Origin: an uncultured Methanosarcinales archaeon
GTDB taxonomy: Archaea > Halobacteriota > Methanosarcinia > Methanotrichales > Methanotrichaceae
DNA length: 34,159 bases
Assembly: GCA_963843555.1 (NCBI GenBank)
Contig: CAWJKV010000001.1
Coordinates: 1-34,159, forward strand
Direction: 5' to 3'
The translations under genes were made by a program, and so were the position numbers. Below are positions 2,413-34,159 of this stretch, piece after piece (position 1 is the stretch's first letter; each line of letters begins with the position of its first letter). The notes under the pieces were generated by a model. That model was not told the origin of the DNA. It ran no database searches and saw nothing but the letters and a program-made list of their open reading frames with translations.

Positions 2413-3330
2413 TCAGCCAATGATTCCCACAAAATCAATCTGGTGGGCTATGTAGATCAGTTCGTTGTTCTCCACCTGATTATGACGTTTGCAGATCCAG
2501 TCATTCAATCGGAGAGCGTCCAGCTCTGAGCTGTTTTGCAGAGCCTGTCCTATAATATTTATTATAAAATGCAGAAAGTAGGCCTCGTCTTGACGATAAC
2601 CATTCTGTCCTGCATAGATCACCCAATCCGATGCCCCAGCATCGAGGATCTGCATTCCAGCTTCTTTCAGGCAGGAGAAGAGATGACGACCCGAACGGCT
2701 ATCCCCGGATCGGTTACCGTTCACTAATCGTTCATCCATGGTTTTATGATAAAGATTTAGGATCAGATCATCAAGCTCTTCATCAATTGCCGGCTCTAAA
2801 ACTGTCAAACCATCAAAGTTAATTGTAAAATAAAAGAGCCCCCTCTTTTTGAGCAGCTCTGACATCAAAGGGAGTGTGGCCCGAATATCGACAAGATCCA
2901 AAAAAGCGTTGGCCATTATCAGATCAAATTTTCCCTTCTCATGAGAGGCAAAATCAAAAAAATCCTCATTTTTAAATCTGATATCGACCCGCTTATCGCT
3001 CCCTGCTAGGCACCAATTATCCGCAGAGGACTCTTCGAATCGCATGTCATGGCCGGCAGCCCAGTCTCGCATCCGCTCTTGAGCCCGAATTTTGTTCTCC
3101 TCACTGATATCGATGGCGGTATAAATTACGGAGTTGAGCAGCCTTGCATCCAGCAGGCGCTCGATCATTGTGCCGATTCCTGCTCCTACCTCCAGAATCC
3201 GTACAGGTTTATCAGGAGAGGATTTTATCGTCCCCAGCCTTTGAACCAGTGCATCCCAAACGTGGCGATTTAGGGAGCGATCATCTATACCTTTCTTGGC
3301 TTCAAGATAGTGAGTGAAGGAATATTTCAA
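2413..3330 (-). CDS. Class I SAM-dependent methyltransferase (copy A)
   Basis: 305-aa ORF with motif I RILEVGAGIG and FDLIMANAFLDL. The TTG start abuts the glycosyltransferase stop. Confidence 0.88.
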   Translation of the reverse strand: MKYSFTHYLEAKKGIDDRSLNRHVWDALVQRLGTIKSSPDKPVRILEVGAGIGTMIERLLDARLLNSVIYTAIDISEENKIRAQERMRDWAAGHDMRFEESSADNWCLAGSDKRVDIRFKNEDFFDFASHEKGKFDLIMANAFLDLVDIRATLPLMSELLKKRGLFYFTINFDGLTVLEPAIDEELDDLILNLYHKTMDERLVNGNRSGDSRSGRHLFSCLKEAGMQILDAGASDWVIYAGQNGYRQDEAYFLHFIINIIGQALQNSSELDALRLNDWICKRHNQVENNELIYIAHQIDFVGIIG

Positions 3331-4440
3331 TCAAATCAAACCCTGCAAGAAGCTTCGAATATTTTCCATAGAATTCTCCCATGTGGGTTGAGTTTGATAA
3401 CGATCCAGGGCAGCAAGGCTCATCTCCAATAATAGCTCCCGATTTTTCGCCAATCGCGTCAAATATTTCGCCAGATCGGCATAATCGCCGGGCGATACCA
3501 GAAAGCCATCCAACCCGTGCCTGATGATCTCTCCTGTCCCGCCGCAATTTGTGCCGATGGCCGGAAGACCAAAACCCATGCCCTCCAGGTAAGCTATGCC
3601 AAATCCTTCATAAAAGGAAGGAATAACCAGCAGATGGCTCGCTTTCATGCAACCGGCCAGGTCATCGTCGCTCAATATGCCTCTGAAACACACAACACCA
3701 GCCAGGCCGTCTCGCTCTATCTGCCGGCAAACCGACTTAAAGTAGGAGGGGTCCTTTTCCGTATCTCCCACCACATTGATGATGAACTGATTGTCTGGCG
3801 ATCCTTTCAGTGACTTTAGCAAAACGTGCAATCCTTTGCGCGGTATGATGTTGCCGATGAATAACAAACGCAGGGCACCCTCCAGTTGCACTCTCTTGCA
3901 GATTTCCGGCCTGCTGATCTGGGGATGCAAACGATCTCCACCGGGTTTTGCGATAAGGCAGTGATCATTTTGAGACCTGTAATCATTTGATGATAATTTA
4001 CTTGAAGATAATAGATCCGCAACAATCCTTTGAGTAGCCTGGCTGTTACAGATGAGACCATCCAGGCCGGATAGATACTGGCGCTCAACCAGACGGTAGA
4101 TCTGATTTATCCAGAAAGGATTATCCTCGCAGCATCGCAAGTGGTGGACGATGGATACAATTGGATAGCTTGATTTTTTGCGCAGTCTACGGTTGAGCAT
4201 GATCAGGGAGGGATGATTCAGTTCATCTTGAAGCAATAATTCGCAATCGAGGCCTGCCAGCTGATGGAACACTTGACCGGAGAAATTATGCAAAAGATGG
4301 TGCGCATAACTACGATCCGGCAAGGAGATGATTTCAACTTTATCCAGGTGACCTCTCAAAAACTCCACCAGCTTGCGATCATAGAGGTAGCCTCCAGATA
4401 GCCTATCCAGGCTGCCGTAGATCATCAGGCCGATGCGCAT
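3331..4440 (-). CDS. GT4-family (GT-B) glycosyltransferase (copy A)
   Basis: 369 aa with SGGYLYDR, GNIIPRKG and PSFYEGFGIAYLEGM (E-x7-E) motifs. Confidence 0.92.
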   Translation of the reverse strand: MRIGLMIYGSLDRLSGGYLYDRKLVEFLRGHLDKVEIISLPDRSYAHHLLHNFSGQVFHQLAGLDCELLLQDELNHPSLIMLNRRLRKKSSYPIVSIVHHLRCCEDNPFWINQIYRLVERQYLSGLDGLICNSQATQRIVADLLSSSKLSSNDYRSQNDHCLIAKPGGDRLHPQISRPEICKRVQLEGALRLLFIGNIIPRKGLHVLLKSLKGSPDNQFIINVVGDTEKDPSYFKSVCRQIERDGLAGVVCFRGILSDDDLAGCMKASHLLVIPSFYEGFGIAYLEGMGFGLPAIGTNCGGTGEIIRHGLDGFLVSPGDYADLAKYLTRLAKNRELLLEMSLAALDRYQTQPTWENSMENIRSFLQGLI

Positions 4441-4455
4441 TTAGCCTCTAGTGCC

Positions 4456-4845
4456 TCAATTTTTTCCTCTCTCAAGCCTGTACGAAGCCCATGCAATATT
4501 ATTTTCCCATATTTTTACAGTTAGAACCCGAACATCTTGCGTCTTTATCTTATCACAGAGCGTCCTGCAAATGATAAATGCAAACCGTTCAAGACTGGGA
4601 TTCAATCCGGCGAATTCCGCCAGATCATTTAGAGTTTTATCTCTATAATAGATTACCAGCTCTCCTAAATGAGATTCTACATCCACAATATCAACTAAAA
4701 AGCCGTACTGATTCAGATCGCATCCTTCCAGCTGCACTTCGATTTGATAATGATGGGAATGCCTTTTGTTCTCCTCTCCCCAATCTCCGCCTATCAAGTA
4801 GTGCTGAGCTACAAAATCCCTCTTTACAGCTATTGCATACGTCAT
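4456..4845 (-). CDS. 6-pyruvoyl-tetrahydropterin synthase/QueD-like T-fold protein (COG0720), non-canonical active site (copy A)
   Basis: 129 aa with FVAQH, HSHHY, GFLVDI, LND...F...NPS.E and V.IWEN motifs. It lacks the QueD CxxxHGH cysteine. Confidence 0.85.
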   Translation of the reverse strand: MTYAIAVKRDFVAQHYLIGGDWGEENKRHSHHYQIEVQLEGCDLNQYGFLVDIVDVESHLGELVIYYRDKTLNDLAEFAGLNPSLERFAFIICRTLCDKIKTQDVRVLTVKIWENNIAWASYRLERGKN

Positions 4846-4874
4846 CTCACCCTCTTCAATTTATTATCCACATC

Positions 4875-6294: not shown

Positions 6295-6570
6295 TTACTG
6301 CACAGCTTCCGCATACTGGCTGCTGAACTCCTCGCACTGATCGATGATGCGGCGAGTGGCCTCTTTCAGGACAATTATGGGATCGATCCCTGAAGTTGTG
6401 ATCCGGAAGACGGGGTTATCCATGACCGGAAACTTGGTGTCGTAGGTGGCCATCAGCACCCGGTCGTCATTCAAAAGCTCAGTTCTGAGCAGGTTCAGGA
6501 TGGTATGCCCTTCGCCCACAAACTCTATGACGGCCTGGTTCTCCGTCTTCGTGATAATTTTCAGATTCAA
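6295..6570 (-). CDS. rpoL: DNA-directed RNA polymerase subunit L (Rpo11) (copy A)
   Basis: 91 aa with GEGHTILNLLR motif, directly downstream of csl4 as is common in archaea. Confidence 0.93.
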   Translation of the reverse strand: MNLKIITKTENQAVIEFVGEGHTILNLLRTELLNDDRVLMATYDTKFPVMDNPVFRITTSGIDPIIVLKEATRRIIDQCEEFSSQYAEAVQ

Positions 6571-7131
6571 CTAGACCACACCCAATCCATATGCTGAGCT
6601 TGTCTTGCGCGTCTCGGTATTGCCGCAATTGGGACAGACCAGTTTTCCGTCTTTGCGCATCAGGCCCGTAAGGCACCGACTGCAATAAGCCTTGATCACG
6701 CCCAGATCGTCATCGCCTGTGGAGAGCCTCATTTGCCTCTCATCCACGATCCTGGCCTTGAGGATATCGCGCAGAGAGAAAAGGTTGCGCAGATCCTTGA
6801 CATAGGAGTTCCTCACATTGGAGATGTGAATGGTGGCCTCCTCATCTGAGATGGGCCGATCCTCATAGCCCTTCTTAAAGGCCAGAGAGACTATGACCAG
6901 GCTGTCCTTAAGGTCAATTACCTCGCCGACTACTATATCGCCCTGACAGAGCTTGACTGGGGCGTTGGTCTTGGGTATAACACTGGCGGATCTGGTCTTG
7001 GAATCGACCTTAACCAGTCCCGCTGTAGTTGCAAAAATCATTCCTTCCCTGGCGTAGGTGCAATCTCCGGGAACGAACTCCTCGGCCGATCCCACCACAT
7101 CTCCAGGAAGCACAAAGCTGCCGTCCATCAT
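6571..7131 (-). CDS. csl4: Exosome complex RNA-binding protein Csl4 (copy A)
   Basis: FVLPGD..EEF.PG N-terminus, S1 domain, C-terminal zinc ribbon CSRC...CPNCG..E.RK. Confidence 0.93.
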   Translation of the reverse strand: MMDGSFVLPGDVVGSAEEFVPGDCTYAREGMIFATTAGLVKVDSKTRSASVIPKTNAPVKLCQGDIVVGEVIDLKDSLVIVSLAFKKGYEDRPISDEEATIHISNVRNSYVKDLRNLFSLRDILKARIVDERQMRLSTGDDDLGVIKAYCSRCLTGLMRKDGKLVCPNCGNTETRKTSSAYGLGVV

Positions 7132-7229
7132 TTATTCCTCTATAATTCCAATATATGCGCGTGTTGCTACCAGCATGATTTCTAATATCCGATTTCTAAT
7201 GTCAGCATCCAAACTACTTATATCTAAGA

Positions 7230-7820
7230 CTACTGGCATGTTATTCTATAAAGCTCAACCTCAATGATCTTGATATCCTGGCTATGAAACTCAAAACACC
7301 TCTTCATGGGAAAGGGAATGCGATAGACCTCTTGCACGACGCACGGCTTTACAAATCCACTGACAAAACCTATGCTACCCAGGTTATGCAGAGAATAGAT
7401 GGTCCTGGCGATCTTTTGGGCTTTGGAGAGAAAGGCGCGGTCGCCACTGCTTGCCTTCTGGGCTCCAAAGGGCGGATTCATGATTACAGTATCAATGCCT
7501 TTGAGGCTCACTGAGTTCACATCGGCGCGGATGAAGTCCACATCGACACCAAGCTTTTCTGCATTTCGTCTGGCCGCGGCCAGAGCCCCGGCATCGATCT
7601 CCACGCCAACGGCTTTCGCACCCAGCAGGGCAGCGCCCACTGCCAATACGCCTGTCCCGCAGCCCAGGTCGCATACTTTACCTAAATCGCCGCGCAGACC
7701 CGCCAGATATAGCATCTCCGCTGCGACAGGGGCAGGCGTTGCATACTGCTCCCTCTGAAAAGAGGGCTTAGAAAAACCCTCCAATCGCTCCAGGGCAATC
7801 TCTAGCTGCTTTTTCTTCAT
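7230..7820 (-). CDS. METTL5/COG2263-like N6-adenine RNA methyltransferase (copy A)
   Basis: EQY.TP, DLGCGTG, MNPPFG and IYSLH motifs. Confidence 0.88.
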   Translation of the reverse strand: MKKKQLEIALERLEGFSKPSFQREQYATPAPVAAEMLYLAGLRGDLGKVCDLGCGTGVLAVGAALLGAKAVGVEIDAGALAAARRNAEKLGVDVDFIRADVNSVSLKGIDTVIMNPPFGAQKASSGDRAFLSKAQKIARTIYSLHNLGSIGFVSGFVKPCVVQEVYRIPFPMKRCFEFHSQDIKIIEVELYRITCQ

Positions 7821-10497: not shown

Positions 10498-11739
10498 ATG
10501 GAGTTCACTGCGCAGGAAAAGTATGAATATAAGCGTCTTCTCGACGGCCTTCGGAGCAAGACGGGCAGAGGTACGGAGCTAATTTCCCTTTATATTCCTC
10601 CCGACAAGCAGATCTCTGATGTCATGAGTCAGCTGCGCGAGGAGTACGGACAGGCGTCTAACATCAAATCCAGGGTTACCAGGCTCAGCGTGCAGGGCTC
10701 CCTTGAGTCTGCCATGTCCCGGCTCAAGCTCATTCCCAAGCCTCCGGCAAACGGGGTCGTCATCTTCATCGGCAGCGTGGATGCAGGTGCCAACCGCACC
10801 GAGATGTACAGCGTGGCAATGGAGCCGCCAGACCCCATAGTCACCTACAGATATCATTGCGACTCCTCTTTTCTTCTAGGGCCGCTGGAGGAGATGCTGG
10901 CCGACAAAAAAACCTTCGGGCTTATCGTCCTGGATCGGCGCGAGGCCGCCATTGGCGTTCTGAAGGGAAAATATATCGAACCTCTAAAGCATCTCACGTC
11001 AAGTGTGCCGGGCAAGCAGAGAAAAGGCGGCCAGTCCAGCCATAGGTTCCAGCAGCTCCGCCTTATCGCTATCCACGAATTCTACAAGAGGATAGGGGAT
11101 TCAGCCAACGATGCATTTCTCACCATTGACCCCAAGGATCTGGAAGGCATACTGGTGGGAGGGCCTTCGCCCACCAAAGAGGAGTTTGTGGACGGGGGCT
11201 TTTTGCACCATGAGCTGCAACGAAAGGTCTTGGGAGCTCTGGATGTCTCTTATACGGATGAGTCAGGGCTGTATGAGCTTGTGGATGCCGCTCAAGAGCA
11301 ACTTGTTGATCTCGAAGTGACCAAGGACAAACTGGTCATGCGACAGTTCATGAAGGAGCTGGTATCCGACAAAGGGCTGGCGGCTTACGGAGAGAAAGAA
11401 GTTCGCCATAACCTGGAGCTCGGCTCTGTAGAGACCCTTATACTTTCTGAGGATCTGCGAAAGACCAGGGCAAAGATCGTATGCAGTAACCGCAGCTGTG
11501 ACTTTACCGATAACCAGACGCGCAGCAGTTCATCGTCGCCTGTTGGCAATTGTCTGAAGTGCTCAAGCCCGTTATCCGTTGCGGAAGAAGAGGATATAGT
11601 CTCTGATCTATCCAAGCTGGCAGATCAGAGTGGAGCTGTGGTCAAGATCATCTCCACGGATTTTGAGGAAGGCGCTCAGCTTTACAAGGCATTTGGAGGG
11701 ATCGCTGCCATCCTCAGATACAAGACCAGTCATATCTAG
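10498..11739 (+). CDS. prf1: Peptide chain release factor aRF1 (copy A)
   Basis: GTELISLYIP, ASNIKS, YRYHCD and GGQS motifs, 413 aa. Confidence 0.97.
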   Translation: MEFTAQEKYEYKRLLDGLRSKTGRGTELISLYIPPDKQISDVMSQLREEYGQASNIKSRVTRLSVQGSLESAMSRLKLIPKPPANGVVIFIGSVDAGANRTEMYSVAMEPPDPIVTYRYHCDSSFLLGPLEEMLADKKTFGLIVLDRREAAIGVLKGKYIEPLKHLTSSVPGKQRKGGQSSHRFQQLRLIAIHEFYKRIGDSANDAFLTIDPKDLEGILVGGPSPTKEEFVDGGFLHHELQRKVLGALDVSYTDESGLYELVDAAQEQLVDLEVTKDKLVMRQFMKELVSDKGLAAYGEKEVRHNLELGSVETLILSEDLRKTRAKIVCSNRSCDFTDNQTRSSSSSPVGNCLKCSSPLSVAEEEDIVSDLSKLADQSGAVVKIISTDFEEGAQLYKAFGGIAAILRYKTSHI

Positions 11740-11744
11740 AGGCG

Positions 11745-12185
11745 ATGAGAACGATCGAGGTAACAGTCTACTCATCCGTCTGGCCCACGGAGCGCGTGGA
11801 GAAGGTAGTCTCCGCCATTGAGAATATTTTTCCAGGGCTTATCATGGACATTCGCGTGGACCGCATTGAGGCCTACAACGGGCCCGACGCCCTGAAAGTT
11901 TTTCACATGCTTTTGAGGAAGCAGGAGATTCTGGACTCGGCTCGATCCGCCATGCTGCGCGGCCGGTCGGGGGATTCGTTCCAGTTCCAGCTAAACAAGC
12001 AAGCCGCCCTGATGGGCATAGTGAGTTTTCCTCCAGTGGAGGAGCCACTGGGCTCTTTGCATGTCCAGATCACGGGAGGCGAGCGAGTTATCGATTGGCT
12101 GGCACCCGCTACGGAAAATGGAGCGCCGGTCAAAGAAATAGATCTCTCTAATCTGGCTGAAGGAACGGAGGGAGCAGATGTTTAG
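11745..12185 (+). CDS. UPF0201/DUF54 putative RNA-binding protein (copy A)
   Basis: PTE...KV..AI.NIFP, QEILDSAR, LNKQAA and IDWLAP.T..G.P motifs. Confidence 0.85.
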   Translation: MRTIEVTVYSSVWPTERVEKVVSAIENIFPGLIMDIRVDRIEAYNGPDALKVFHMLLRKQEILDSARSAMLRGRSGDSFQFQLNKQAALMGIVSFPPVEEPLGSLHVQITGGERVIDWLAPATENGAPVKEIDLSNLAEGTEGADV

Positions 12186-12948
12186 CTTCTCCTCCAGCAA
12201 GCTAGTTGACAGGCCCTTCGACTGGGCGTATCAGCTGGAAGATCTGGGCTACAGCGGCTGGGAGATTGTTAACGAAGGAAAGCAGAAGCTAACCCGCGAG
12301 AACCTCGCTGAGGCAAAACAGATTGTCGAGACCACAAATCTTACTATTACCATCCATCTGCCCTACTCGGATCTGAATCTGGCATCAGTAAACCAGCCCA
12401 TCTGGGAGGAGACGGTGCGGCAGATGAAGAGCTGTCTGGACCTCGCCAATGATTTTGCCCGTCTGGCCGTCCTTCATCCCGGCCACTTCTCGCCCCTGGG
12501 AATGCAGATGCCCGATGCTGCCTGGCTGCAAAGCATAAGCGGGATACAGCAGATCTGCGATCACGCCGCGAATCTGGATATGAGAATTGCCGTGGAGAAC
12601 ATGGTTAATATGCCTGCCATATTAGGACGTCAGCCTGAGGAGATTGCAGGCATACTGGAGACTGTAGATCGCGAGAATGCGGGCTTTATCTTTGATGTGG
12701 GTCATGCCAATACCAATGGAAATGTGGAGAACTTTTTGAAGTTAAAAGATAAGATGATTCACGCTCATGTGCATGACAACCACGGCGAAAGAGACGAGCA
12801 CCTGCCTGTGGGAAACGGCACTGTCCCCTGGAAAAAAGTCGCAGCTGCCCTGAAAGACTACAAAGGGCGCATTGTCACAGAATCCCGTTCTCTGGAAGAA
12901 GGGCAGAGGTCCGTGAACCGCCTTAAAAAGATGATGAATCTAGAGTGA
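12178..12948 (+). CDS. Sugar-phosphate isomerase/epimerase / AP-endonuclease-2 TIM-barrel protein (copy A)
   Basis: IHLP..DLN.AS, HPG, AVENM, FDVGHAN and HVHDN.G..D.HLP.G.G metal motifs. Confidence 0.88.
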   Translation: MFSFSSSKLVDRPFDWAYQLEDLGYSGWEIVNEGKQKLTRENLAEAKQIVETTNLTITIHLPYSDLNLASVNQPIWEETVRQMKSCLDLANDFARLAVLHPGHFSPLGMQMPDAAWLQSISGIQQICDHAANLDMRIAVENMVNMPAILGRQPEEIAGILETVDRENAGFIFDVGHANTNGNVENFLKLKDKMIHAHVHDNHGERDEHLPVGNGTVPWKKVAAALKDYKGRIVTESRSLEEGQRSVNRLKKMMNLE

Positions 12949-12979
12949 GATCAAATCCGAGGAGAATGTAACTACTACC

Positions 12980-13611
12980 ATGTCCATCTTTGAGAACATA
13001 TCATTGAGTATGCTGGCCAGCTTTGATTCCAAAGACGGGCCCGAGAGGAGGCTCTGCGCCTTTCCCGGGATGTCATCCGTCTTTGTTCTTCATCCATCAG
13101 ATCGGTGCACCGAAAGGACCTGCAGTCTGCGGAAAGGCTGGTGAAGGAGGCGGCTGTGGGCCTGGAGAAGATCCGGGTTATTCTGAAGGACCACCAGGAT
13201 GTACGTTATGCAGGTTTTGTGGACGGTGCGGAGCAGGAGTATGCCGAGGCGCTAAATGTCTACTCGATCACCACCAGGCATGAGGTTCTCACTCCTGATG
13301 AGGTGGGAGTGGAGCTGGTGAACTATTTGGCCGGCCTGGGTGACACCAGCGGCGAGCTTCGCCGTCATATTCTGGACCTCATTCGCAGCGGAAAGGCGGG
13401 CGAGGGCGAGTACTTCCTGGGAGTAATCGAGGAGATATACTATCTGCTGATGCTCTTTGACTATCCGGATGCCATCACCAGAGGGCTGCGACGCAAGAGC
13501 GACCTCGCCAGGTCTATGCTGGAAAGGACGCGCGGAGACCTCACCAATGCCCTGGAGCTTGCCAGGGTTGAAGCATCACTATCGTGTTTCCATGATTCAA
13601 AAAAGTCTTAA
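12980..13611 (+). CDS. Translin/TRAX (C3PO)-family protein (copy A), frameshift near 13040
   Basis: EQEYAEA, YLAGLGD..GELRR and GLRRK.D motifs. The N-terminus is restored by comparison with copy B (KDQAREEALRL). Confidence 0.85.
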
Positions 13612-22992: not shown

Positions 22993-23017
22993 GATTTAAA
23001 ACTCCAAGATTTGAGCT

Positions 23018-23647
23018 TTAAGCTTTTTTGATTCATGGAAACGCATAGCGAGGCTTCAACCCTGGCAAGCTCCAGGGCATTGGTGAGGTCGCCTCTCGTC
23101 TTCTCCAGCATCGATCTGGCCAGGTCGCTCTTGCGGCGCAGGCCTCGAGTGATGGCGTCCGGATAATCGAAGAGCATCAGCAGATAGTAAATCTCCTCTA
23201 TCACTCCCAGGAAATACTCGCCCTCGCTCGCCTTTCCTCTTCGTATCAGGTCCAGAATATGACGGCGAAGCTCTCCGGTGGTGTCCCCAAGGCCGCCCAG
23301 ATAGTTCACCAGCTCCACTCCCACCTCATCGGGCGTGAGGATCTCATGTCTGGTGATGATGGAGTGGACGATTTGGCTTCGGCATACTCCTGCTCAGCTC
23401 CGTCCACAAATCCGGCATGGCGAACATCCTGGTGATCCGACAGGATCTCCCGGATCTTCTTCAGGCCCAGAGCCGCCTGGTCCATGAGCCTCTCTGCTGT
23501 TGGAGGTCGCTTTCGGTGCATGGATCTGATCGATGAAGAACAAAGACGTATCACCTCCCGGCAGAGGCGCAGGGCCTCTTCTCGGGCCTGGTCTTTGGAT
23601 TCAAAGCTGGCGAGCATGCTCTCGGACAGGTTCTCAAAGCTGGACAT
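23018..23647 (-). CDS. Translin/TRAX-family protein (copy B), several indels
   Basis: ORFs 23306..23647 and 22989..23324 match copy A. Confidence 0.82.
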
Positions 23648-23676
23648 AGTAGTAGTTCATTCTCCTACGGAATTAC

Positions 23677-24449
23677 TCATTCTCGATTCATCAAGTTCTT
23701 GAGGCGCATTACAGACCTCTGGCCCTCTTCCAGGGAACGGGACTCAGTAACCATGCGCCCTTTATAATCCTTTAGGGCGGAAGCCACCTTCGACCAGGGA
23801 ACGGTTCCGATGCCCACAGGCAGGTGCTCGTCTCTTTCGCCGTGGTTGTCATGAATATGAGCGTGAATGACCATTATCTTTTAGCTTCAGGAAGTCCTCC
23901 ACGTTGCCATTGGTGTTGGCATGGCCAACGTCGAGAATAAAGCCCGCATTCTCCCGGTCCACAGTCTCCAGTATTCCCACAATCTCCTCCGGCCTTCTGC
24001 CCAGCAACGCAGGCATGTTCACCATGTTCTCCACGGCGATCCTCATGTCCAGCTCCGCGGCATGATCGCAGATCTGCTGCAGCCCGAGTATGTTCTGGGT
24101 CCAGGCAGCATCAGGCATCTGCATTCCCAGGGGGGAGAGGTGGCCGGGATGAACGACGGCCAGACGGGAAAACTCACACGCCAGGTCCAGACAGCTCTTC
24201 ATCTGCCTCACCGTCTCTTCCCAGATGGGCTGGTTCATGGATGCCAGGTTCAGGTCGGAGTAGGGCAGGTGAATGGTAATGACCAGATTGGTGGTCTCGA
24301 CGATCTGCATGGCCTCGGCCCGGTTCTCAGCGCGTTAGCTTCTGCTGTCCCTCGTTCACGATCTCCCAGCCGCTGTAGCCCAGGTCTTCCAGTTGATACG
24401 CCCAGTCAAAGGGCCTGTCCACGAGCTTGCTGGAGGAGAAGCTAAACAT
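23677..24449 (-). CDS. Sugar-phosphate isomerase/epimerase TIM-barrel protein (copy B), frameshifted
   Basis: ORFs 23849..24310 and 23677..23874 plus the 5' segment match copy A. Confidence 0.85.
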
Positions 24450-24880
24450 CCTGCCCCTCCGTTCCGATCTATCTGATCAAACGACTATTTCTATGATCGG
24501 CATTCCATTTACCGTATCGGGTGCCAGCCAATCGATAAGCCGTTCGCTCCCGTTATCTGGACATGCAAAGAGCCCAGTGGCTCTTCCACTGGCGGAAAGC
24601 TCACCATGCCCATCAGGGCCGCCTGCTTGTTCAGCTGGAACTGGAACGAATCGCCCGACCGGCCACGCAGCATGACAGATCGAGCCGAGTCCAGAATTTC
24701 CTGCTTCCTCAAAAGCTCGTGAAAGATTTTCAGGGCAGCAGGCCCGCCATAGGCCTCTACCCTGTCATCCCGAATGTCCATAATCATTTCGGGAAAGAGC
24801 TTCTCAATGGCGGAGACGACCCTCTCCACGCGCTCTGTCGGCCTGATGGATGAGTGGACAGAGACCTCGATCGTTCTCAT
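24442..24880 (-). CDS. UPF0201/DUF54 protein (copy B), frameshift near 24545
   Basis: ORF 24509..24880 is homologous to copy A. Confidence 0.82.
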
Positions 24881-24885
24881 CGCCC

Positions 24886-26127
24886 CTAGAGGTGGCTGGT
24901 CTTGTATCTGAGGATGGCGGCCACTCCGCCGAAGGCCTTGTAAAGCTGTGCCCCTTCCTCAAACTCGGTGGAGATGATCTTGACCGCGCTCCGCTTGAGT
25001 CTGCCAGCCCGGACAGATCAGATACGATATCCGTCTCCTCCGCAATGGATAGGGGGCTTCCGCACTTCAGGCAGTTACCTAAAGGCGCTGCGGCGCCGGC
25101 AGCGGGTCTGGCTATCGGAGAAGTCGCAGCTTCGATTGGTGCAGACGATCTTGGCCCTGGTCTTGCGCAGATCTTCGGAGAGGAGAAGGACCTCGACGGA
25201 GCCAAGCTCCAGGTTGTGGCGAACCTCCTTTTCGCCGTAGGCAGCCAGGCCGTGGTCGCTGACCAGCTCCTTCATGAAGCGGCGCATCACCAGTTTGTCC
25301 TGGGTCAGTTCCAGGTCCAGGAGTTGGTCTTGAGCGGCATCCACCAGCTCATACAGCCCCGATTCATCGGTATAGGAGACATCGAGAGCACCCAATACCT
25401 TGCGCTGCAGCTCATGGTGCAAGAATCCGCCATCTATGAACTCTTCTTTGGTGGGAGATGGCCCGCCTACCAGGATGCCCTGCAGGTCCTTGGGGTCTAT
25501 GGGGAGAAAGGCATCATTGGCGGACTCCCCGATCCTTCCATAAAAGTCGTGGATGGCGATCAAGCGCAGTTGCTGGAAGCGGTGGCTGGACTGCCCGCCC
25601 TTCCTCTGTTTGCCAGGCACGGTAGAGGTGAGGTGCTTTAGGGGTTCGATGTATTTGCCTCTTAGAACACCGATGGCCGCCTCGCGCCTGTCCAGGACTA
25701 TGAGCCCGAAGGTCTTCTTGTCGGCCAGCATCTCCTCCAGCGGCTGGAGCAGAAAAGAGGAATCGCAGTGATACCGGTAAGTCACAATCGGATCCGGCGG
25801 CTCCAGGGCGACGCTGTACATCTCGGTCTTGTTGGCACCTGCATCCACGCTGCCGATGAAGATGACCACGCCGTTTGCGGGTGGCTTGGGGATCAATTTG
25901 AGCCGGGACATGGCCGACTCAAGAGAGCCCTGCACGCTGAGCCGGGTGACCCTGGATTTGATGTTGGATGCCTGTCCGTACTCCTCGCGAAGCTGGGCAG
26001 TGACATCCGAGATCTGTTTGTCGGGAGGAATGTAGAGGGAAATTAGCTCCGTTCCTCTGCCTGTCTTGGTCCGAAGGCCGTCAAGAAGACGTTTAAACTC
26101 ATATTTTTCCTGCGCAGTGAACTCCAT
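24886..26127 (-). CDS. prf1: Peptide chain release factor aRF1 (copy B), offsetting indels near 25100 and 24990
   Basis: NIKS, YRYHCD and GGQS motifs. Same total length (1242 nt) as copy A. Confidence 0.94.
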
Positions 26128-26373
26128 TCTGGCGAATCTCCCAAAAAATGCTCCGGGCCATGATATAAAAGGCTTCTTCAAGATGATTTCAGATGATTAT
26201 GCCTCTGGGTTGGACCTATTTGTGATGAATGGGGTCGATCCCAACAGGCAAACTATTATTACTATCTCAATTTTCTTTTTGAATATCGACTGTATAATCT
26301 CATGTAAGGCTAATTTTCTAAGTAAACGGTAATAGTAAATCCGACAATAGAAATCTCAAAATTTGACCTATTC

Positions 26374-26405
26374 AAAAACTATATAAAGATATAAGTTATC
26401 TTATA
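26374..26405 (+). promoter_or_regulatory. Putative BRE/TATA promoter plus palindromic site for TPR gene (copy B)
   Basis: aaaaacTATATAAA (TATA 26380-26387), then TATAAG-ttat-CTTATA 26390-26405, ATG at 26410. Confidence 0.6.
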
Positions 26406-26409
26406 ATCC

Positions 26410-28767
26410 ATGGATCAATTAGTCGTTCTCCAGGAGATTTATGAATCATTTTCCAAAGGAGGGGATGGTCTCCAGGAAATCAATAGCAAGGCCATCGAAG
26501 GAAGCTGTCCCGAACTGATCAGTAAATTGCTGGAAGGCGCCCAGAAGGCGAGGATTGACGAAGACATCTGCCGCAAGCTTTCGGGCAGCCTCCAGGATAT
26601 CTACGAGATCAAGCGACTGGGCGACATCTGTCGCAGGGCTGGCATGCATAGCCTCGCCATAAATAGCTACAACAGGGCGCTGTCTCTATGCCGCGATCAG
26701 ATCCTCCGGCCGGTACTGCAGAACAACCTGGGACAGGCCTATGCCCGTCAGGGAGATCTGGCGAGAGCCGCCTTCTACTACCAGAAATCTGCCAGCAGTT
26801 TTGCGAAATCGGGAGACAGTACAGGCCTTGCCCATGTGCTGGGAAATTTGGGCTCAGCCTACCGGCGCAACGGGGACTGGGAAAAAGCCATAGAGCACTG
26901 CTATCGCAGCTTGAAGACCTTCGAGGAGAAGAGAGACGATCTCGGCATTGCCCAGATGACGGGAAGCCTGGGGAGGATATATGCGGATATGGGTGAGAGA
27001 GAGCTGGCCGCGCGATATTTCGAGAGAAGCCTGACCGACTTTCAGAGGCTGGGGGATAAGAGGAGCGCGGCATGGGTCCTGGACAGGATGGGAAGGATCG
27101 CTGGTGAGGCGCTGGACTGGGACAGGGCTCAGGGCTACTTTAATCAGAGTCTCTCCCTATTCGAGCAGCAAGGCCAAAGCCAGAGCCAGGGAATTGTTCT
27201 CTCCAACCTGGGACGCATGTATCTGGAGATGGGTGAAGCAACCGCGGCTCGCGAATCCCTGGAGAAGGCCATACTTCTGATCAGGCGCAATATGCAGCCC
27301 AACTATCCGAATGCTCTCTCCTGCCTGGCCGCGACCTACAGCACGATTGCAAGAAATTGTCTGAATGAGGCAGAGGCCATTGAAGAACTGGGCCGCGGAT
27401 CGAGCCAATCGCAACGTTTGGAGGCCTCCAGACAATTTGCCCGATCCTCAGATCGTTTCCTGGAGCTGGCATCAATCCTTCCCCATGTTCAGCCTGAGAT
27501 CAAAGTTGCCGCAGGAATAGCCAAAAGCCGATCCTACCTGGCCAAGCTCTCCGGCCAGGTCTCTGATGAGGAGGCAGTATCCCTGGCCGAGAGGGCTATG
27601 GCATCTCTGGACACGGCAGCCGCAAATGCAACTGATTCGAAGAAAATCAAGATACAGGGTCTGCAGAAGACCATTGCCGGGATGAAGGAGGCCAGATCCA
27701 TAAAGCTTCTGGGAAGCGAGCCCTGGAGGCTGATCAAGGCCGTCGCCAATGCCAGCGAGCTGCTAATGGGCGGCGCTGAAGAGTGCTCATCCGGTGATAT
27801 CAACTGCTGCCTTTGCACGGGTCTCGGCAATTTTTGTGCCAGCATTGAGGCAGAAAGATCCAGAACGGACCCTGCAGAGAAACTCTATGCCGCCGCATCA
27901 AATTTCCGCAGCGCTGGAAAGCATTTCCTGGCTGCAGAAAAGGATCCAAAAGGGAGGTATTCTCGCAGGCTGAGCGAGGCGGCAGCGATCCTGGAAGCGC
28001 AGGCGAGCAAAGATAATGGAAATATGCAGGATGAGCTGCGCAACAATCAGCTCAGCTTTGGGCCGGAGAGAGATGCACTTCTAATTATTGCAGAGGTTAT
28101 GGCGGACAATTTGCTGGCGGAAATCGATGATGGCAGTGCAATATTCGCCTGGGATGAAGCCCTGAATCTTATGCCTGAAACTGGAAAACGCATTGGAGCC
28201 GAAAAAATCAAGATAGATGAGCTGGAGGTGGAGCCGAATCCGGAACCCATCAGCGAAACTGATCTTCCTAATCTCGAGATCTCTCCCGAGAGGTCTGTCG
28301 CTAGAGGCCTGATACTTGCCGATGGCACCCTTGAAGCCTCTGAGGTCTTTGTCTCGGAAATAATAAGTCCCGAGGAAGGCTGGCTTGTTCCTGTCAGTGC
28401 GAGCGTGCCCTGCCGGAGTTATGGCCAGGTCATTCTCTCTCCAAAGACTCAATCATTCCGTGGCGAGAGCCGGGCGCCAATAAGGTCGGAGATGGAGATA
28501 ATTGGGAGAGATGAAGGGCAGGTCGATGGACCAATTGCAGAGCCAGTTGAAGGGTTTGCCGATTATGGGAATGACACAGAGCCGCAAGAGATCAGGCTTG
28601 AGGGAGTAGGTCCTGTTGCTCGCGAGGCTGTCCCGGACCCGGAAGATTCGTCTTTGGACGCCAAGGAAGGTCTACTCAGCCGCTCGAAAGGTATACTTCT
28701 CCTTAAGGCTCTGACTGTCCTCGTCGTCTTGCTCCTGGCAATAGAGGTGATACTATATTTGATATAG
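26410..28767 (+). CDS. Large TPR-repeat protein with C-terminal hydrophobic helix (copy B)
   Basis: Intact 785-aa ORF homologous to copy A. Confidence 0.88.
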   Translation: MDQLVVLQEIYESFSKGGDGLQEINSKAIEGSCPELISKLLEGAQKARIDEDICRKLSGSLQDIYEIKRLGDICRRAGMHSLAINSYNRALSLCRDQILRPVLQNNLGQAYARQGDLARAAFYYQKSASSFAKSGDSTGLAHVLGNLGSAYRRNGDWEKAIEHCYRSLKTFEEKRDDLGIAQMTGSLGRIYADMGERELAARYFERSLTDFQRLGDKRSAAWVLDRMGRIAGEALDWDRAQGYFNQSLSLFEQQGQSQSQGIVLSNLGRMYLEMGEATAARESLEKAILLIRRNMQPNYPNALSCLAATYSTIARNCLNEAEAIEELGRGSSQSQRLEASRQFARSSDRFLELASILPHVQPEIKVAAGIAKSRSYLAKLSGQVSDEEAVSLAERAMASLDTAAANATDSKKIKIQGLQKTIAGMKEARSIKLLGSEPWRLIKAVANASELLMGGAEECSSGDINCCLCTGLGNFCASIEAERSRTDPAEKLYAAASNFRSAGKHFLAAEKDPKGRYSRRLSEAAAILEAQASKDNGNMQDELRNNQLSFGPERDALLIIAEVMADNLLAEIDDGSAIFAWDEALNLMPETGKRIGAEKIKIDELEVEPNPEPISETDLPNLEISPERSVARGLILADGTLEASEVFVSEIISPEEGWLVPVSASVPCRSYGQVILSPKTQSFRGESRAPIRSEMEIIGRDEGQVDGPIAEPVEGFADYGNDTEPQEIRLEGVGPVAREAVPDPEDSSLDAKEGLLSRSKGILLLKALTVLVVLLLAIEVILYLI

Positions 28768-28793
28768 GCAGTGCGGCATGTCTGCCCTAAGGG

Positions 28794-29387
28794 ATGAAGA
28801 AAAAGCAGCTAGAGATTGCCCTGGAGCGATTGGAGGGTTTTTCTAATCCCTCTTTTCAGAGGGAGCAGTATGCCACGCCCGCCTCGGTCGCAGCGGAGAT
28901 GCTTTACCTGGCAGGTCTGCGCGGCGATTTAGGTACCGTATGCGACCTGGGCTGCGGGACAGGCGTATTGGCAGTGGGCGCGGCCCTCCTGGGTGCAACA
29001 AAGGCCGTTGGCGTGGAGATCGATGCCGGGGCTCTGGCCGTGGCCAGACGAAATGCAGAAAAGCTTGGTGTCGATGTGGACTTCATCCGCGCCGATGTGA
29101 ACTCAGTGAACCTCAAAGGCATCGATACCGTGATCATGAATCCGCCCTTTGGAGCCCAGAAGGCAAGCAGAGGCGACCGCGCCTTTCTCTCCAAAGCCCA
29201 AAAGATCGCCAGGACCATCTATTCACTGCATAACCTGGGTAGCCTAGGTTTCGTCAGCGGATTTGTAAAGCCCTGCGTCGTGCAGGAGGTCTATCGCATT
29301 CCCTTTCCCATGAAGAGGTGCTTTGAGTTTCATAGCCAGGATATCAAGATCATTGAGGTTGAGCTTTATAGAATAACATGCCAGTAG
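28794..29387 (+). CDS. METTL5/COG2263-like RNA methyltransferase (copy B)
   Basis: DLGCGTG and NPPF motifs, 197 aa (one codon longer than copy A). Confidence 0.88.
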   Translation: MKKKQLEIALERLEGFSNPSFQREQYATPASVAAEMLYLAGLRGDLGTVCDLGCGTGVLAVGAALLGATKAVGVEIDAGALAVARRNAEKLGVDVDFIRADVNSVNLKGIDTVIMNPPFGAQKASRGDRAFLSKAQKIARTIYSLHNLGSLGFVSGFVKPCVVQEVYRIPFPMKRCFEFHSQDIKIIEVELYRITCQ

Positions 29388-29486
29388 TCTTAGATATTAG
29401 TAGTTCTGGATGCTGACATTAGAAATCGGATATTAGAAATGATGCTGGTAGTAACACGCGCATATATTGGAATTATAGAGGAATAA

Positions 29487-30047
29487 ATGATGGACGGCAG
29501 CTTTGTGCTTCCTGGAGATGTGGTGGGATCGGCTGAGGAGTTCGTTCCCGGAGATTGCACCTACGCCAGGGGAGGAATGATTTTTGCAACTACAGCGGGA
29601 CTGGTTAAGGTCGATTCCAAGACCAGATCTGCCAGTGTTATACCCAAGACCAACGCCCCAGTCAAGCTCTGTCAGGGCGATATAGTAGTCGGCGAGGTAA
29701 TTGACCTTAAGGACAGTCTGGTCATAGTCTCTCTGGCCTTTAAGAAGGGCCATGAGGACCGGCCCATCTCAGACGAGGAGGCCACCATTCACATCTCCAA
29801 TGTGAGGAACTCCTATGTCAAGGATCTGCGCAACCTTTTCTCTCTGCGCGATATCCTCAAGGCCAGGATCATGGATGAGAGGCAGATGAGGCTCTCCACA
29901 GGCGATGACGATCTGGGCGTGATCAAGGCTTATTGCAGTCGGTGCCTTACCGGCCTGATGCGCAAAGACGGAAAACTGGTCTGTCCCAATTGCGGCAATA
30001 CCGAGACGCGCAAGACAAGCTCAGCATATGGATTGGGTGTGGTCTAG
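29487..30047 (+). CDS. csl4: Exosome protein Csl4 (copy B)
   Basis: 186 aa, 3 aa differences from copy A. Confidence 0.93.
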   Translation: MMDGSFVLPGDVVGSAEEFVPGDCTYARGGMIFATTAGLVKVDSKTRSASVIPKTNAPVKLCQGDIVVGEVIDLKDSLVIVSLAFKKGHEDRPISDEEATIHISNVRNSYVKDLRNLFSLRDILKARIMDERQMRLSTGDDDLGVIKAYCSRCLTGLMRKDGKLVCPNCGNTETRKTSSAYGLGVV

Positions 30048-30322
30048 TTGAATCTGAAAATTATCACTAAGACGGAGAACCAGGCCGTCATAGAGTTTGT
30101 GGGTGAAGGGCATACCATCCTGAACCTGCTCAGAACTGAGCTTTTGAATGACGAAAGGGTGCTGATGGCCACCTACGACACCAAGTTTCCGGTCATGGAT
30201 AACCCCGTCTTCAGGATCACGACTCAGGGGTTGATCCCATAGTTGTCCTGAAAGAGGCCACTCGCCGCATCATCGACCAGTGCGAGGAGTTCAGCAGCCA
30301 GTATGCGGAAGCTGTGCAGTAG
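30048..30322 (+). CDS. rpoL: RNA polymerase subunit L (copy B), 1-nt deletion near 30224
   Basis: GEGHTILNLLR motif. 275 nt versus 276 nt in copy A. Confidence 0.9.
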
Positions 30323-30657
30323 TTCCGCAATCCCAAATATTCTTTTTCCAGCAGCAGGTCTCTCCTGTGCCGACGCCGCGCCTCTTCCCGGAGGGTTGAA
30401 GCGACTGTCGTATCATCTCCACATTGCTAAGCTGCTGATCCTTTTCAAATTCCGCGCCTTGGAAAACTTAAAGAATATTGAATGCGATAAACAAATAACC
30501 TTATTTAATTATTGCTTTATATTTCTTGAATGTTCTAATATCTGCAAAGATTGACCCAAAGATGCGCATCCAATGGCTGGAATAAATTTAATACTTAATA
30601 ATAACAGATTAAGATAAGAGCCGGCAAAGCTGGAAAGAGATAGGGGGAAGTTTGGAT

Positions 30658-31738
30658 ATGGATATGAACGAATCCGTTATTGGCGACAGCAAATTAGAAC
30701 GAAAGGCGAACTTCAGGCCGTCTTCAAATAGGGTTTCTCTTTATTTCACCAATCAACGCCAGGTTATGGTGCAGGAGGAAGAATTGCCAAGAATGGGAGA
30801 TAATCAGGTGCTGGTCGAGACACTGCTATCTGCCATAAGTCCTGGGACTGAATCTCTGATTTATCGGGGGGAATTTCCGGGAAATATTTCTGTTGACGAA
30901 AATATCGTCTCCCTTTCGAAAGATTTCTCATATCCTATAAAATATGGCTATTCGGCAGCAGGGAGAGTTGTTGATATAGGAAAGTGATGTAGATTCCCAA
31001 TGGAAAGACCGTTTGGTCATGGCCTTCAATCCACACGAGAGCCATTTCATAGCCGACCCAAAGACACTAATGCTCTTTCCAGAGGACATAAAACCGGATG
31101 ATGGCGTATTCCTGCCCAATATGGAAACAGCGATCAATTTTCTAATGGATGGCAAGCCTCTGATCGGCGAGGATGTGGCAGTATTTGGCCAGGGTATTGT
31201 GGGTTTGCTGACAACTGGTCTCCTGGCTCGTATTCCACTGGCAAGCTTGATCGCATTGGATCGATTCCCAATGCGGCGACAAGTTTCCCGAGAAGTCGGT
31301 GCAAAGGTCTGCCTCGATCCGGAGGATGCTGACCTCCAGGAAAGACTGGCAGAATACTTGCCAAACGGCGCAGACCTTACTTATGAGGTCTCCGGATCTC
31401 CGGCCGCATTGGATCAGGCTCTAGCAGCCACAGGATTTGCAGGTCGGATAGTGATTGGATCATGGTATGGAAGCCAGCGTTCCAGCCTGAGCCTGGGCGG
31501 ACAGTTTCACCGCAGCAGGATCCGACTCATTAGCAGCCAGGTCAGCACCCTCGCCTCAGAATTTCAGGGTCGCTGGACAAAAGCACGCCGTCTAGGAGTT
31601 GCCTGGGAGATGATACGCCAATTGAAACCAAGTCGCTTCGTCACTCATCGTTTCCCAATTCGGGAAGCAGCAAAGGCCTACAATATCCTTGATCAGGAGG
31701 CTGGATCGGCAATCCAGATTTTGCTCACGTACCAATGA
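30658..31738 (+). CDS. Zn-dependent/MDR dehydrogenase (copy B), frameshift near 30985
   Basis: ORFs 30652..30987 and 31013..31738 match copy A. Confidence 0.87.
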
Positions 31739-31767
31739 GATGTGTATAATAAATTGAAGAGGGTGAG

Positions 31768-32156
31768 ATGACGTATGCAATAGCTGTAAAGAGGGATTTT
31801 GTAGCTCAGCACTACTTGATAGGCGGAGATTGGGGGAGGAGAACAAAAGGCATTCCCATCATTATCAAATCGAAGTGCAGCTGGAAGGAGGCGATCTGAA
31901 TCAGCACGGCTTTTTAGTTGATATTGTGGATGTAGAATCTCATTTAGGAGAGTTGATGATTTATTATAGAGATAAAACTCTAAATGATCTGGCGGAATTT
32001 GCCGGATTGAATCCCAGTCTTGAAAGGTTTGCATTCATCATTTGCAGGACGCTCAGTGATAAGATAAAGGCGCAAGATGTTCGGGTTCTAACTGTAAAAA
32101 TATGGGAAAATGATATTGCTTGGGCGTCTTACAGGCTTGAGAGAGGAGAAAATTGA
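31768..32156 (+). CDS. PTPS/QueD-like protein (copy B), 1-nt deletion near 31835
   Basis: Homologous to 4456..4845. Confidence 0.83.
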
Positions 32157-32171
32157 GGCACCAGAGGCTAA

Positions 32172-33281
32172 ATGCGCATCGGCCTGATGATCTACGGCAG
32201 CCTGGATAGGCTATCTGGAGGCTACCTCTATGATCGCAAGCTGGTGGAGTTTTTGAGAGGGCACCTGGATAAAGTTGAAATCATCTCCTTGCCGGATCGT
32301 AGTTATGCGCACCATCTTTTGCATAATTTCTCCGGTCAATTGTTCCATCAGCTGGCAGGCCTCGATTGTGAATTGTTGCTTCAAGATGAACTGAATCATC
32401 CCTCCCTGATCATGCTCAACCGTAGACTGCGTAAAAAATCAAGCTATCCAATTGTATCCATCGTCCACCACTTGCGATGCTGCGAGGATAATCCTTTCTG
32501 GATAAATCAGATCTACCGTCTGGTTGAGCGCCAGTATCTATCCGGCCTGGATGGTCTCATCTGCAACAGCCAGGCTACTCAAAGGATTGTTGCGGATCTA
32601 TTATCTTCAAGTAAATTATCATCAAATGATTACAGGTCTCAAAATGATCACTGCCTTATCGCAAATCCCGGTGGAGATCGTTTGCATCCCCAGATCAGCA
32701 GGCCGGAAATCTGCAAGAGAGTGCAACAGGAGGGTGCCCTGCGTTTGTTATTCATCGGCAACATCATACCGCGCAAAGGATTGCACGTTTTGCTAAAGTC
32801 ACTGAAAGGATCGCCAGCCAATCAGTTCATCATCAATGTGGTGGGAGATACGGAAAAGGACCCCTCCTACTTTAAGTCGGTTTGCCGGCAGATAGAGCGA
32901 GACGGCCTGGCTGGTGTTGTGTGTTTCAGAGGCATACTGAGCGACGATGACCTGGCCGGTTGCATGAAAGCGAGCCATCTGCTGGTTATTCCTTCCTTTT
33001 ATGAAGGATTTGGCATAGCTTACCTGGAGGGCATGGGTTTTGGTCTTCCGGCCATCGGCACAAATTGCGGCGGGACAGGAGAGATCATCAGGCACGGGTT
33101 GGATGGCTTTCTGGTATCGCCCGGCGATTATGCCGCTCTGGCGGAATATTTGACGCGATTGGCGAAAAATCGGGAGCTATTATTGGAGATGAGCCTTGCT
33201 GCCCTGGATCGTTATCAAACTCAACCCACATGGGAGAATTCTATGGAAAATATTCGAAGCTTTTTGCAGGGTTTGATTTGA
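32172..33281 (+). CDS. GT4 glycosyltransferase (copy B)
   Basis: 369 aa, 6 aa differences from copy A. Confidence 0.92.
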   Translation: MRIGLMIYGSLDRLSGGYLYDRKLVEFLRGHLDKVEIISLPDRSYAHHLLHNFSGQLFHQLAGLDCELLLQDELNHPSLIMLNRRLRKKSSYPIVSIVHHLRCCEDNPFWINQIYRLVERQYLSGLDGLICNSQATQRIVADLLSSSKLSSNDYRSQNDHCLIANPGGDRLHPQISRPEICKRVQQEGALRLLFIGNIIPRKGLHVLLKSLKGSPANQFIINVVGDTEKDPSYFKSVCRQIERDGLAGVVCFRGILSDDDLAGCMKASHLLVIPSFYEGFGIAYLEGMGFGLPAIGTNCGGTGEIIRHGLDGFLVSPGDYAALAEYLTRLAKNRELLLEMSLAALDRYQTQPTWENSMENIRSFLQGLI

Positions 33282-34159
33282 TTGAAATATTCCTTCACTC
33301 GCTATCTTGAAGCCAAGAAAGGTATTGATGATCGCTCCTTAAATCGCCACGTTTGGAATGCACTGGTTCAAAGGCTGGGGAGGATAAAATCCTCTCCTGA
33401 TAAACCTGTACGGATTCTGGAGGTAGGAGCAGGTATCGGCACAATGATCGAGCGCCTGCTGGATGCAAGGCTGCTCAACTCCGTAATTTATACCGCCATC
33501 GATATTAGTGAGGAGAACAAAATTCGGGCTCAAGAGCGGATGCGAGACTGGGCTGCCGGCCATGACATGCGATTCGAAGAGTCCTCTGCGGATAATTGGT
33601 GCCTAGCAGGGAGCGATAAGCGGGTCGAGATCAGATTCAAAAATGAGGATTTTTTTGATTTTGCCTCTCATGAGAAGGGAAAATTTGATCTAATAATAGC
33701 CAACGCTTTTTTAGATCTTGTGGATATTCGGGTCACACTTCCTCTGATGTCAGAGCTGCTCAAAAAGAGGGGGCTCTTTTATTTTACAATTAACTTCGAT
33801 GGTTTGACAGTTTTAGAGCCGGCAATTGATGAAGAGCTTGATGATCTGATCCTAAATCTGTACCATAAAACCATGGATGAACGATTAGTGAACGGTAACC
33901 TCTCTGGGGATAGCCGTTCGGGTCGTCATCTCTTCTCCGGTCTGAAAGACGCTGGAATGCAGATACTCGATGCTGGGGCATCGGATTGGGTGATCTTTGC
34001 AGGACAGAATGGCTATCGCCAAGACGAGGCCTACTTTCTGCATTTTATAATAAATATAATAGGACAGTCTCTGCAAAACAGCTCAGAGCTGGACGCTATT
34101 CGATTGAGTTGACTGGATCTGCAAACGTCATAATCAGGTGGAGAACAATGAACTGATCT
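33282..34159 (+). CDS. SAM-dependent methyltransferase (copy B), frameshift near 34110, cut by window end
   Basis: Homologous to 2413..3330. Confidence 0.87.

What the first reader, a model, noticed from the sequence alone, without database searches (positions are those of the whole stretch)
2454..34159. Giant palindrome whose arms are two evolutionarily diverged versions of one core-gene region
Seen: 17 genes are mirrored around ~18356, including normally single-copy genes (rpoL, csl4, sepS, rpiA). The arms differ by many synonymous and conservative substitutions, codon-sized indels and different intergenic lengths. This is not simply one molecule read twice. Inference: most likely a metagenomic chimera of two related strains or species joined at the tandem array. 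Alternatives are an old inverted segmental duplication, or a merodiploid formed by uptake of a relative's DNA. Either alternative would be remarkable.
Basis: partly seen in the sequence, partly recalled or inferred. Interest (0 to 1): 0.75.

Follow-up and report, generated by a model that had tools for sequence, protein, structure and literature searches.

The report
Fold-back artefact repainted by relatives' reads
The 32-kb mirror-image gene block in this methane-making archaeon's draft genome is in the sequence but is most likely an assembly artefact: one DNA stretch read forward and back, whose second copy was likely rewritten from the reads of related strains and species, which makes it look like an old duplication.

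Summary
The palindrome is there: 2454-18348 mirrors 18365-34159 at 90.3%, 17 genes, differences mostly at third codon positions. It is most likely not biology. The window is a whole contig of a Methanothrix-family metagenome bin. It folds on a 16-base loop inside a 48-bp repeat gene, with a 313-bp perfect core, at 53.7% of the contig; another contig ends in a plain, error-ridden fold-back. The left arm behaves like a real genome: intact core genes, one sister genome throughout. The right arm does not: 94-99% like the left where relatives lack the DNA, 79-91% in the genus-wide core block; its tree position changes between genes; all six genes from aRF1 to rpiA are frameshifted. Both arrays hold 18 units before the fold, in register. 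A toy re-polishing of a mirror draft with an excess of relatives' reads gave this pattern in 11 of 19 runs. Source reads were not available. The scan noted fold-back artefacts before on other DNA.

The parts
1..2453 (.). Unmirrored left flank with transposase fragments; overlaps the start of contig C14
2454..18348 (+). Arm A: genome-like copy of 17 genes; aRF1-rpiA block free of frameshifts; sister to G058 in every gene compared
6295..7820 (-). rpoL, csl4 and a methyltransferase; genus-wide genes, yet arms 93-98% alike (exception to the main trend)
10498..16034 (+). Core block aRF1, RNA-binding protein, TIM-barrel protein, translin-like protein, sepS, rpiA; arms only 79-91% alike
16040..17460 (+). 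Accessory block after rpiA (two small ORFs, start of the repeat gene); arms 96-98% alike except about 16600-16870 (80%)
16917..18348 (+). Gene with 16-residue repeats; one 1-base insertion near 18035; its frame ends in the loop, so it is cut by the fold
17470..18348 (+). Left 48-bp array, 18 units plus a part unit
18036..18677 (.). Perfect mirror core: 313 bp per side (about 375 with one indel), all arm-A unit types
18349..18364 (.). 16-base loop at the fold; on the minus strand it continues the repeat unit, then turns back at a 7-of-8 inverted microhomology inside the unit
18365..19238 (-). Right 48-bp array, 18 units plus a part unit; the outer 11 units are another allele, in register from the gene's 5' side
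20680..26130 (-). Arm B core block (rpiA to aRF1): alleles of other Methanothrix lineages, 9 frameshifting indels in 6 of 6 genes
26410..28767 (+). Arm B TPR gene, open frame, 90% to arm A and 90% to G058
18365..34159 (-). Arm B as a whole: mosaic mirror copy; its end overlaps the same start of contig C14 as arm A does

Best explanation
The contig is most likely a fold-back artefact of long-read sequencing whose second arm was likely rewritten, during consensus building, from reads of co-occurring strains and related Methanothrix species. Inferred steps: (1) a DNA end inside the 48-bp array folded onto itself at a short inverted match, so one molecule was read out and back; (2) the assembler kept this as a mirror draft; (3) reads of the focal population settled on one arm and made it clean, while reads of other strains and species, with no better place to map, settled on the other and outvoted the draft wherever they could align. 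That leaves real, mostly synonymous alleles in genus-wide genes, near-identity in lineage-specific DNA, leftover frameshifts, and an untouched perfect core. The real genome likely carries one copy, running from contig C14 through arm A and, in another strain, on into contig C17.
For: Shown: perfect 313-bp core and 16-base loop cutting an ORF, fold at 53.7% of the contig. Second fold-back at the end of C2: 66-bp perfect core, 3-base loop, 172 gap openings in 8.3 kb, bursts of error in the terminal arm. Both ends of C1 overlap the same start of C14; C17 ends in sepS-rpiA. Arm-arm identity is 0.936 or more in 15 of 15 300-bp windows where no distant relative aligned, and 0.79-0.91 in 18 of 18 windows from 10554 to 15953 where 22-25 aligned; rho -0.69 over 50 windows, which are not independent. 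Arm B has 9 frameshifting indels in 6 of 6 core genes, arm A none; sepS is whole in arm A and in three pieces in arm B. Arm B groups with arm A and G058 in csl4 and the methyltransferase, but that clade is rejected for aRF1 (p-AU 0.00016) and weakly for rpiA (0.034). 33 of 41 arm-B residue changes in aRF1 occur in relatives. Five long contigs of public runs seen on both arms fit arm A better: 28 v 84, 46 v 85, 21 v 69, 44 v 71, 25 v 81 differences (runs were found with arm A). Both arrays have 18 units before the fold. Toy model: 11 of 15 runs with relatives' reads in excess gave one clean and one overwritten arm with codon-position ratios like the real 96/51/378.
Against: The source reads, platform and assembler are unknown to me; long-read origin is inferred. 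rpoL-csl4-methyltransferase and the 5' part of the TPR gene are genus-wide yet 93-98% alike between arms; among 30 windows with relatives, arm identity does not track how conserved the window is (rho 0.04). The first toy setting failed in 4 of 4 runs; I raised the relatives' share afterwards, set the pass rule after seeing the output, and 2 of the 11 passes keep over 120 deleted bases in the cleaner arm. The model needs relatives' reads to outnumber the focal strain locally. No donor was found: the best other genome matches arm B's block at 85% among 58. For sepS the clade arm A + arm B + G058 is not rejected (p-AU 0.07).
Confidence: 0.74

Rival explanations
1. A short fold-back in the array bridged the assembly, and the return arm was tiled from left-over reads of other strains and species at low depth. 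It is also an artefact and differs from the best explanation only in the stage (layout rather than polishing).
For: Only the inner 7-8 array units are one molecule; the outer 11 units of the right array are another allele. Arm B changes affinity in multi-kb blocks and has about one frameshift per 600 bases in the core block.
Against: Equal unit counts and in-register arrays suggest a mirror scaffold. Tiling would need overlaps between reads about 80-90% alike (inference). Affinity also switches inside genes, e.g. the two halves of the RNA-binding gene.
Confidence: 0.18
2. A real inverted duplication or merodiploid: a fold-back rearrangement in the cell, with one arm later patched by recombination with several relatives and then decaying.
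For: The divergence is selection-shaped. The rpiA neighbourhood is naturally variable: arm A, C17 and G058 differ by 11-12% there. Hairpin junctions with microhomology also arise in cells (own knowledge).
Against: It needs several donors, frameshifts after arrival in 6 of 6 core genes, a perfect 313-bp hairpin kept unchanged, and a second fold-back in the same bin. Among 58 other genomes of the genus the block was found once, or in adjacent or contig-split pieces; the one overlap I noticed is G009, at a contig start. Both contig ends point to the same C14 end.
Confidence: 0.04
3. One molecule read twice, the arm differences being base-calling errors on the fast-moving second strand.
For: This is what the C2 fold-back looks like, and it is a described effect (PMC7229812).
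Against: In C1, 800 of 1250 coding substitutions are at third positions, most changed residues occur in relatives, and arm B aRF1 falls in another clade with 100/98 support.
Confidence: 0.04

Closest known systems
Fold-back (duplicated-inversion) long-read artefact, Heinz, Meyerson and Li 2026, PMC12870357 (first fifth of the text and passages read)
   Same: Second half maps back on the opposite strand within 200 bp, with the break within 10% of the middle; said to cause tangles in assembly graphs.
   Different: Defined on reads with near-perfect arms; here it is a contig whose arms are 90% alike with selection-shaped differences.
Low-accuracy second arm of inverted duplicates in nanopores, Spealman, Burrell and Gresham 2020, PMC7229812 (first quarter read)
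   Same: Wrong and missed calls after the junction; matches the C2 fold-back.
   Different: The C1 arm differences are real alleles of relatives, not random errors.
Haplotyping errors, false duplications and chimeras in long-read metagenome assemblies, bioRxiv 10.1101/2025.04.22.649783 (passages read; supplements closed)
   Same: Contigs that join sub-population sequences, duplicate single-copy genes, or carry palindrome-like repeats unsupported by reads.
   Different: The passages I saw concern PacBio HiFi assemblies and do not describe a fold-back arm overwritten by relatives' reads.
Hairpin-telomere read-through in N15-like linear replicons
   Same: Mirror contig around a tiny loop.
   Different: Here the fold cuts a chromosomal gene beside translation genes, and the arms are not identical.

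Membership tests
Fold-back long-read artefact (PMC12870357) | Second segment on the opposite strand within 200 bp of the first | tested here: met
   16-base loop
Fold-back long-read artefact (PMC12870357) | Break within 10% of the middle | tested here: met
   18356 of 34159 = 53.7%; measured on the contig, not on a read
Fold-back long-read artefact (PMC12870357) | Near-perfect mirror arms | tested here: not met
   Only the inner 313-375 bp are perfect; whole arms 90.3%. So the contig is not a raw fold-back read; it works like one that was rewritten.
Fold-back long-read artefact (PMC12870357) | Junction carried by one read and not by independent reads | not testable with these tools
   No listed run held half of the arm-A words (best 0.36), all were contigs, and my two lays stopped short of the array
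Two-genome chimera | Each arm a coherent genome with one affinity throughout | tested here: not met
   Arm A coherent; arm B 97.5% to G058 in csl4, 83% in aRF1, clade rejected for aRF1
Two-genome chimera | Single-copy core genes doubled on one contig | tested here: met
   rpoL, csl4, aRF1, sepS, rpiA
Biological inverted duplication or merodiploid | Second copy either intact under selection or decaying without codon bias | tested here: not met
   Third-position-biased divergence together with frameshifts in 6 of 6 core genes
Biological inverted duplication or merodiploid | Core genes no more diverged than neighbouring accessory and non-coding DNA | tested here: not met
   Core 79-91%, accessory 96-98% apart from one 270-bp patch
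Hairpin-telomere linear replicon | Protelomerase gene and its target at the fold | not tested
   No search for a protelomerase was run; the fold lies inside a repeat ORF

The most novel reading that the evidence does not exclude
A Methanothrix strain really carries a hairpin-centred inverted duplication of more than 30 kb of core translation and transcription genes, whose second arm has become a sink for DNA from several co-occurring species.
Probability: 0.04. Interest if true: 0.75.

Novelty: not a real feature. Interest (0 to 1): 0.12.

Why it matters
As biology it most likely does not matter. As a caution it does: synonymous, selection-shaped differences between two copies do not prove that both exist in one cell. 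If the inferred mechanism holds, a fold-back plus consensus from relatives' reads can make false paralogues of single-copy markers in a species-representative genome, which would distort contamination scores, marker trees and gene-transfer calls. My searches (listings only, apart from three papers) showed no paper on this combination. A cheap screen follows: a perfect core with a tiny loop near mid-contig, arms more alike in accessory than in core genes, and frameshifts on one side. Bases 18349-34159 should be ignored for annotation.

Tried and rejected
Donor search: arm B's core block against 59 genomes of the genus found nothing above 85% outside G000; an exact 27-base scan of metagenome contigs gave 4 loci, all 74-88% to either arm. 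Public runs: 22 listed, best share 0.36; 4 of 22 were laid. Arm B 23390-26280 had little cover at 90% or more where arm A had much, but the runs were chosen with arm A and a hole in contigs proves nothing, so I do not count it. None of the four covered 16648-17450, so the natural sequence beyond the array stays unknown. A simple 'arm B is the centroid of relatives' test was not supported: at differing aRF1 sites 105 favour arm A, 99 arm B, 15 tie. The first toy simulation left the noisy arm unrepaired in 4 of 4 runs. The repeat protein has no Pfam family, one weak NCBIfam hit below cut-off and one weak homologue among 58 genomes; no structure-based look-up result was obtained. The csl4 tree failed on a label and was redone. 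The loop's strand suggests that arm B was read first, but a strand-switch would give the same sequence, so I draw nothing from it.
Full report
Observation. Self-comparison gives one inverted match, 2454-34159, 90.3% over 31,859 columns. The arms are 2454-18348 and 18365-34159 around a 16-base loop. Seventeen ORFs are mirrored; rpoL, csl4, aRF1, sepS and rpiA pass their NCBIfam cut-offs. Coding substitutions fall 265/185/800 on codon positions 1/2/3, so they are shaped by selection. Indels are mostly single bases: 26 of 38; 6 of 38 are multiples of three.

Context. The window is the whole contig C1 of genome G000: 18 contigs, 2.68 Mb, 82% complete, 3% contaminated. The closest named aRF1 relatives are Methanothrix, Methanotrichaceae and uncultured Methanosarcinales records. 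Several contigs overlap at their ends at 93-98% over kilobases, which suggests a long-read assembly of a mixed population (inference). Both ends of C1 overlap the same start of C14 (98.2% and 97.2%), and the end of C17 overlaps sepS-rpiA (89% to arm A, 78% to arm B) and then goes on in other sequence. At the 69 two-way sites where the arms differ in the C14 overlap, C14 sides with arm A 52 times and with arm B 17 times; at 25 further sites both arms differ from C14. The simple reading is one chromosomal copy, C14 - arm A - C17, with strain variation after rpiA.

The junction. The innermost 313 bp per side are a perfect mirror. The loop, read on the minus strand, continues the 48-bp repeat unit and turns back at a 7-of-8 inverted match that exists inside the unit. 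The repeat gene has no end of its own: its frame stops in the loop. The fold lies at 53.7% of the contig. These meet two criteria of the fold-back artefact in PMC12870357 (opposite strand within 200 bp; within 10% of the middle), applied here to a contig. The same bin has a second case: C2 ends in an 8-kb palindrome with a 66-bp perfect core, a 3-base loop, 172 gap openings and bursts of error in the terminal arm, as described for nanopore inverted duplicates (PMC7229812). Three control contigs had no hairpin above 12 bp (C8, C13, C17 only).

The arrays. Each has 18 units before the fold. Units 12-18 are mirror-identical apart from one inserted base and are arm-A types; units 1-11 of the right array are a different allele, in register from the gene's 5' side. 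Equal counts are expected if a mirror scaffold was overwritten from outside, and would be a coincidence if two contigs were joined somewhere in the array (inference).

Which arm is real. Against up to 30 relatives, arm A's closest other genome is G058 in all nine genes from csl4 to rpiA (88-98%), and its six core genes have no frameshift. Contigs from four public wetland, soil and sediment runs lie along it, the long ones mostly at 94-99%. Five long contigs seen on both arms differ from arm A by 28, 46, 21, 44, 25 letters and from arm B by 84, 85, 69, 71, 81; these runs were found with arm A, so this shows that arm A is a natural allele, not that arm B cannot exist. Arm B is 97.5% to G058 in csl4, 90% in the TPR gene, 83% in aRF1, 91% in sepS and 85% in rpiA. 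It groups with arm A and G058 in csl4 (88/89) and the methyltransferase (99/98), but in aRF1 it sits with G014, G044, G033 and G069 (100/98) and the clade arm A + arm B + G058 is rejected (p-AU 0.00016); rpiA 0.034; sepS 0.07, not rejected. Its changed residues are mostly real: 33 of 41 in aRF1, 36 of 46 in SepS, 26 of 29 in RpiA occur in relatives. Yet it has 9 frameshifting indels across 6 of 6 genes from aRF1 to rpiA, and the genome's only whole sepS is in arm A. No other genome of 58 in the genus matches the block above 85%.

The inverted pattern. In 300-bp windows, arm-arm identity is 0.936-0.993 in 15 of 15 windows where no distant relative aligned and 0.79-0.91 in 18 of 18 windows of the aRF1-rpiA block where 22-25 aligned (rho -0.69, 50 non-independent windows). 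Relatives' loci were at most 20 kb, so some zeros reflect their reach; G058, G055 and G063 do extend about 4-5 kb past rpoL without a match. Right after the rpiA stop the arms are 98% alike in non-coding DNA where C17 is unrelated. Two genomes or an old duplication would be expected to show the reverse (inference). Exceptions: rpoL-csl4-methyltransferase and the 5' TPR part are genus-wide but 93-98% alike; the 3' TPR part has few distant homologues but is 81-90%; and among 30 windows with relatives, identity does not follow conservation (rho 0.04).

Mechanism and a toy test. I built mirror drafts of arm A, simulated reads from arm A and from relatives' loci, assigned each read to its best place and took a majority consensus for 3-4 rounds. 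With mixed, modest foreign depth 0 of 4 runs reproduced the picture, though third-position-biased drift of one arm appeared. With relatives in excess, or both arms clean at the start, 11 of 15 runs ended with one arm at 0.975 or more and the other at 0.92 or less in the core block; focal reads moved to one arm; lineage-specific DNA on the right arm stayed at 0.989 or more; codon-position counts such as 105/60/435 compare with the real 96/51/378. Settings and pass rule were chosen after seeing results, and this is not the real pipeline: it shows sufficiency only.

Rivals. A real duplication or merodiploid (0.04) needs several donors, later frameshifts in every core gene and an unchanged perfect hairpin. 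Pure base-calling noise (0.04) cannot give relatives' residues. Artefact readings sum to about 0.96.

Literature and earlier notes. I read the first fifth plus passages of PMC12870357, the first quarter of PMC7229812 and passages of bioRxiv 10.1101/2025.04.22.649783, which reports haplotyping errors, false duplications and palindrome-like repeats in long-read metagenome assemblies; no supplements were seen, and those of the preprint may hold similar cases. Searches (listings) showed no description of a fold-back arm overwritten by relatives' reads. Earlier notes of this scan list fold-back artefacts in other genomes; none of the 8 notes shown, of 41 for this genome, concerns this contig.

Verdict. 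The palindrome is in the assembly and most likely not in the organism. Interest 0.12.

Noticed in passing
G000:C2:323783-331801: Second fold-back at the contig end: 66-bp perfect core, 3-base loop, terminal arm with bursts of errors and deletions.
   Followed up: yes
window 16917-18348: Gene with a unique part of about 185 residues followed by 18 or more 16-residue repeats in at least two alleles; no Pfam family; one weak homologue of the unique part among 58 genomes. Its true end is lost.
   Followed up: partly
L024:633-5936: Whole rpiA plus a second 3' rpiA fragment about 4.3 kb downstream, enclosing several ORFs and homologues of the two small ORFs that follow rpiA in the window; the rpiA 3' end may be an island integration site. 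1 of 33 loci checked shows the doubling.
   Followed up: partly
window 16119-16842: Two small overlapping ORFs without Pfam or NCBIfam hits, found after rpiA in G004, G012, G068 and L023 (the first also in G042); arm A's first ORF looks frameshifted near 16308. Layout recalls a toxin-antitoxin pair (recalled, untested).
   Followed up: partly
G009:C6:4-1625 and G009:C7:25670-31260: sepS-rpiA present twice in another genome, once at a contig start, like C17 in G000.
   Followed up: no
G000:C9:35781-49859: About 14 kb tandem array with a 369-bp period, copies 80-88% alike.
   Followed up: no
window 2413-5961: Cluster of methyltransferase, glycosyltransferase, PTPS-family protein and zinc dehydrogenase next to transposase fragments, not found at this place in the relatives' loci; the 1-base insertion at 5691 in arm A is absent from contigs of three runs, so it is likely an error.
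   Followed up: partly
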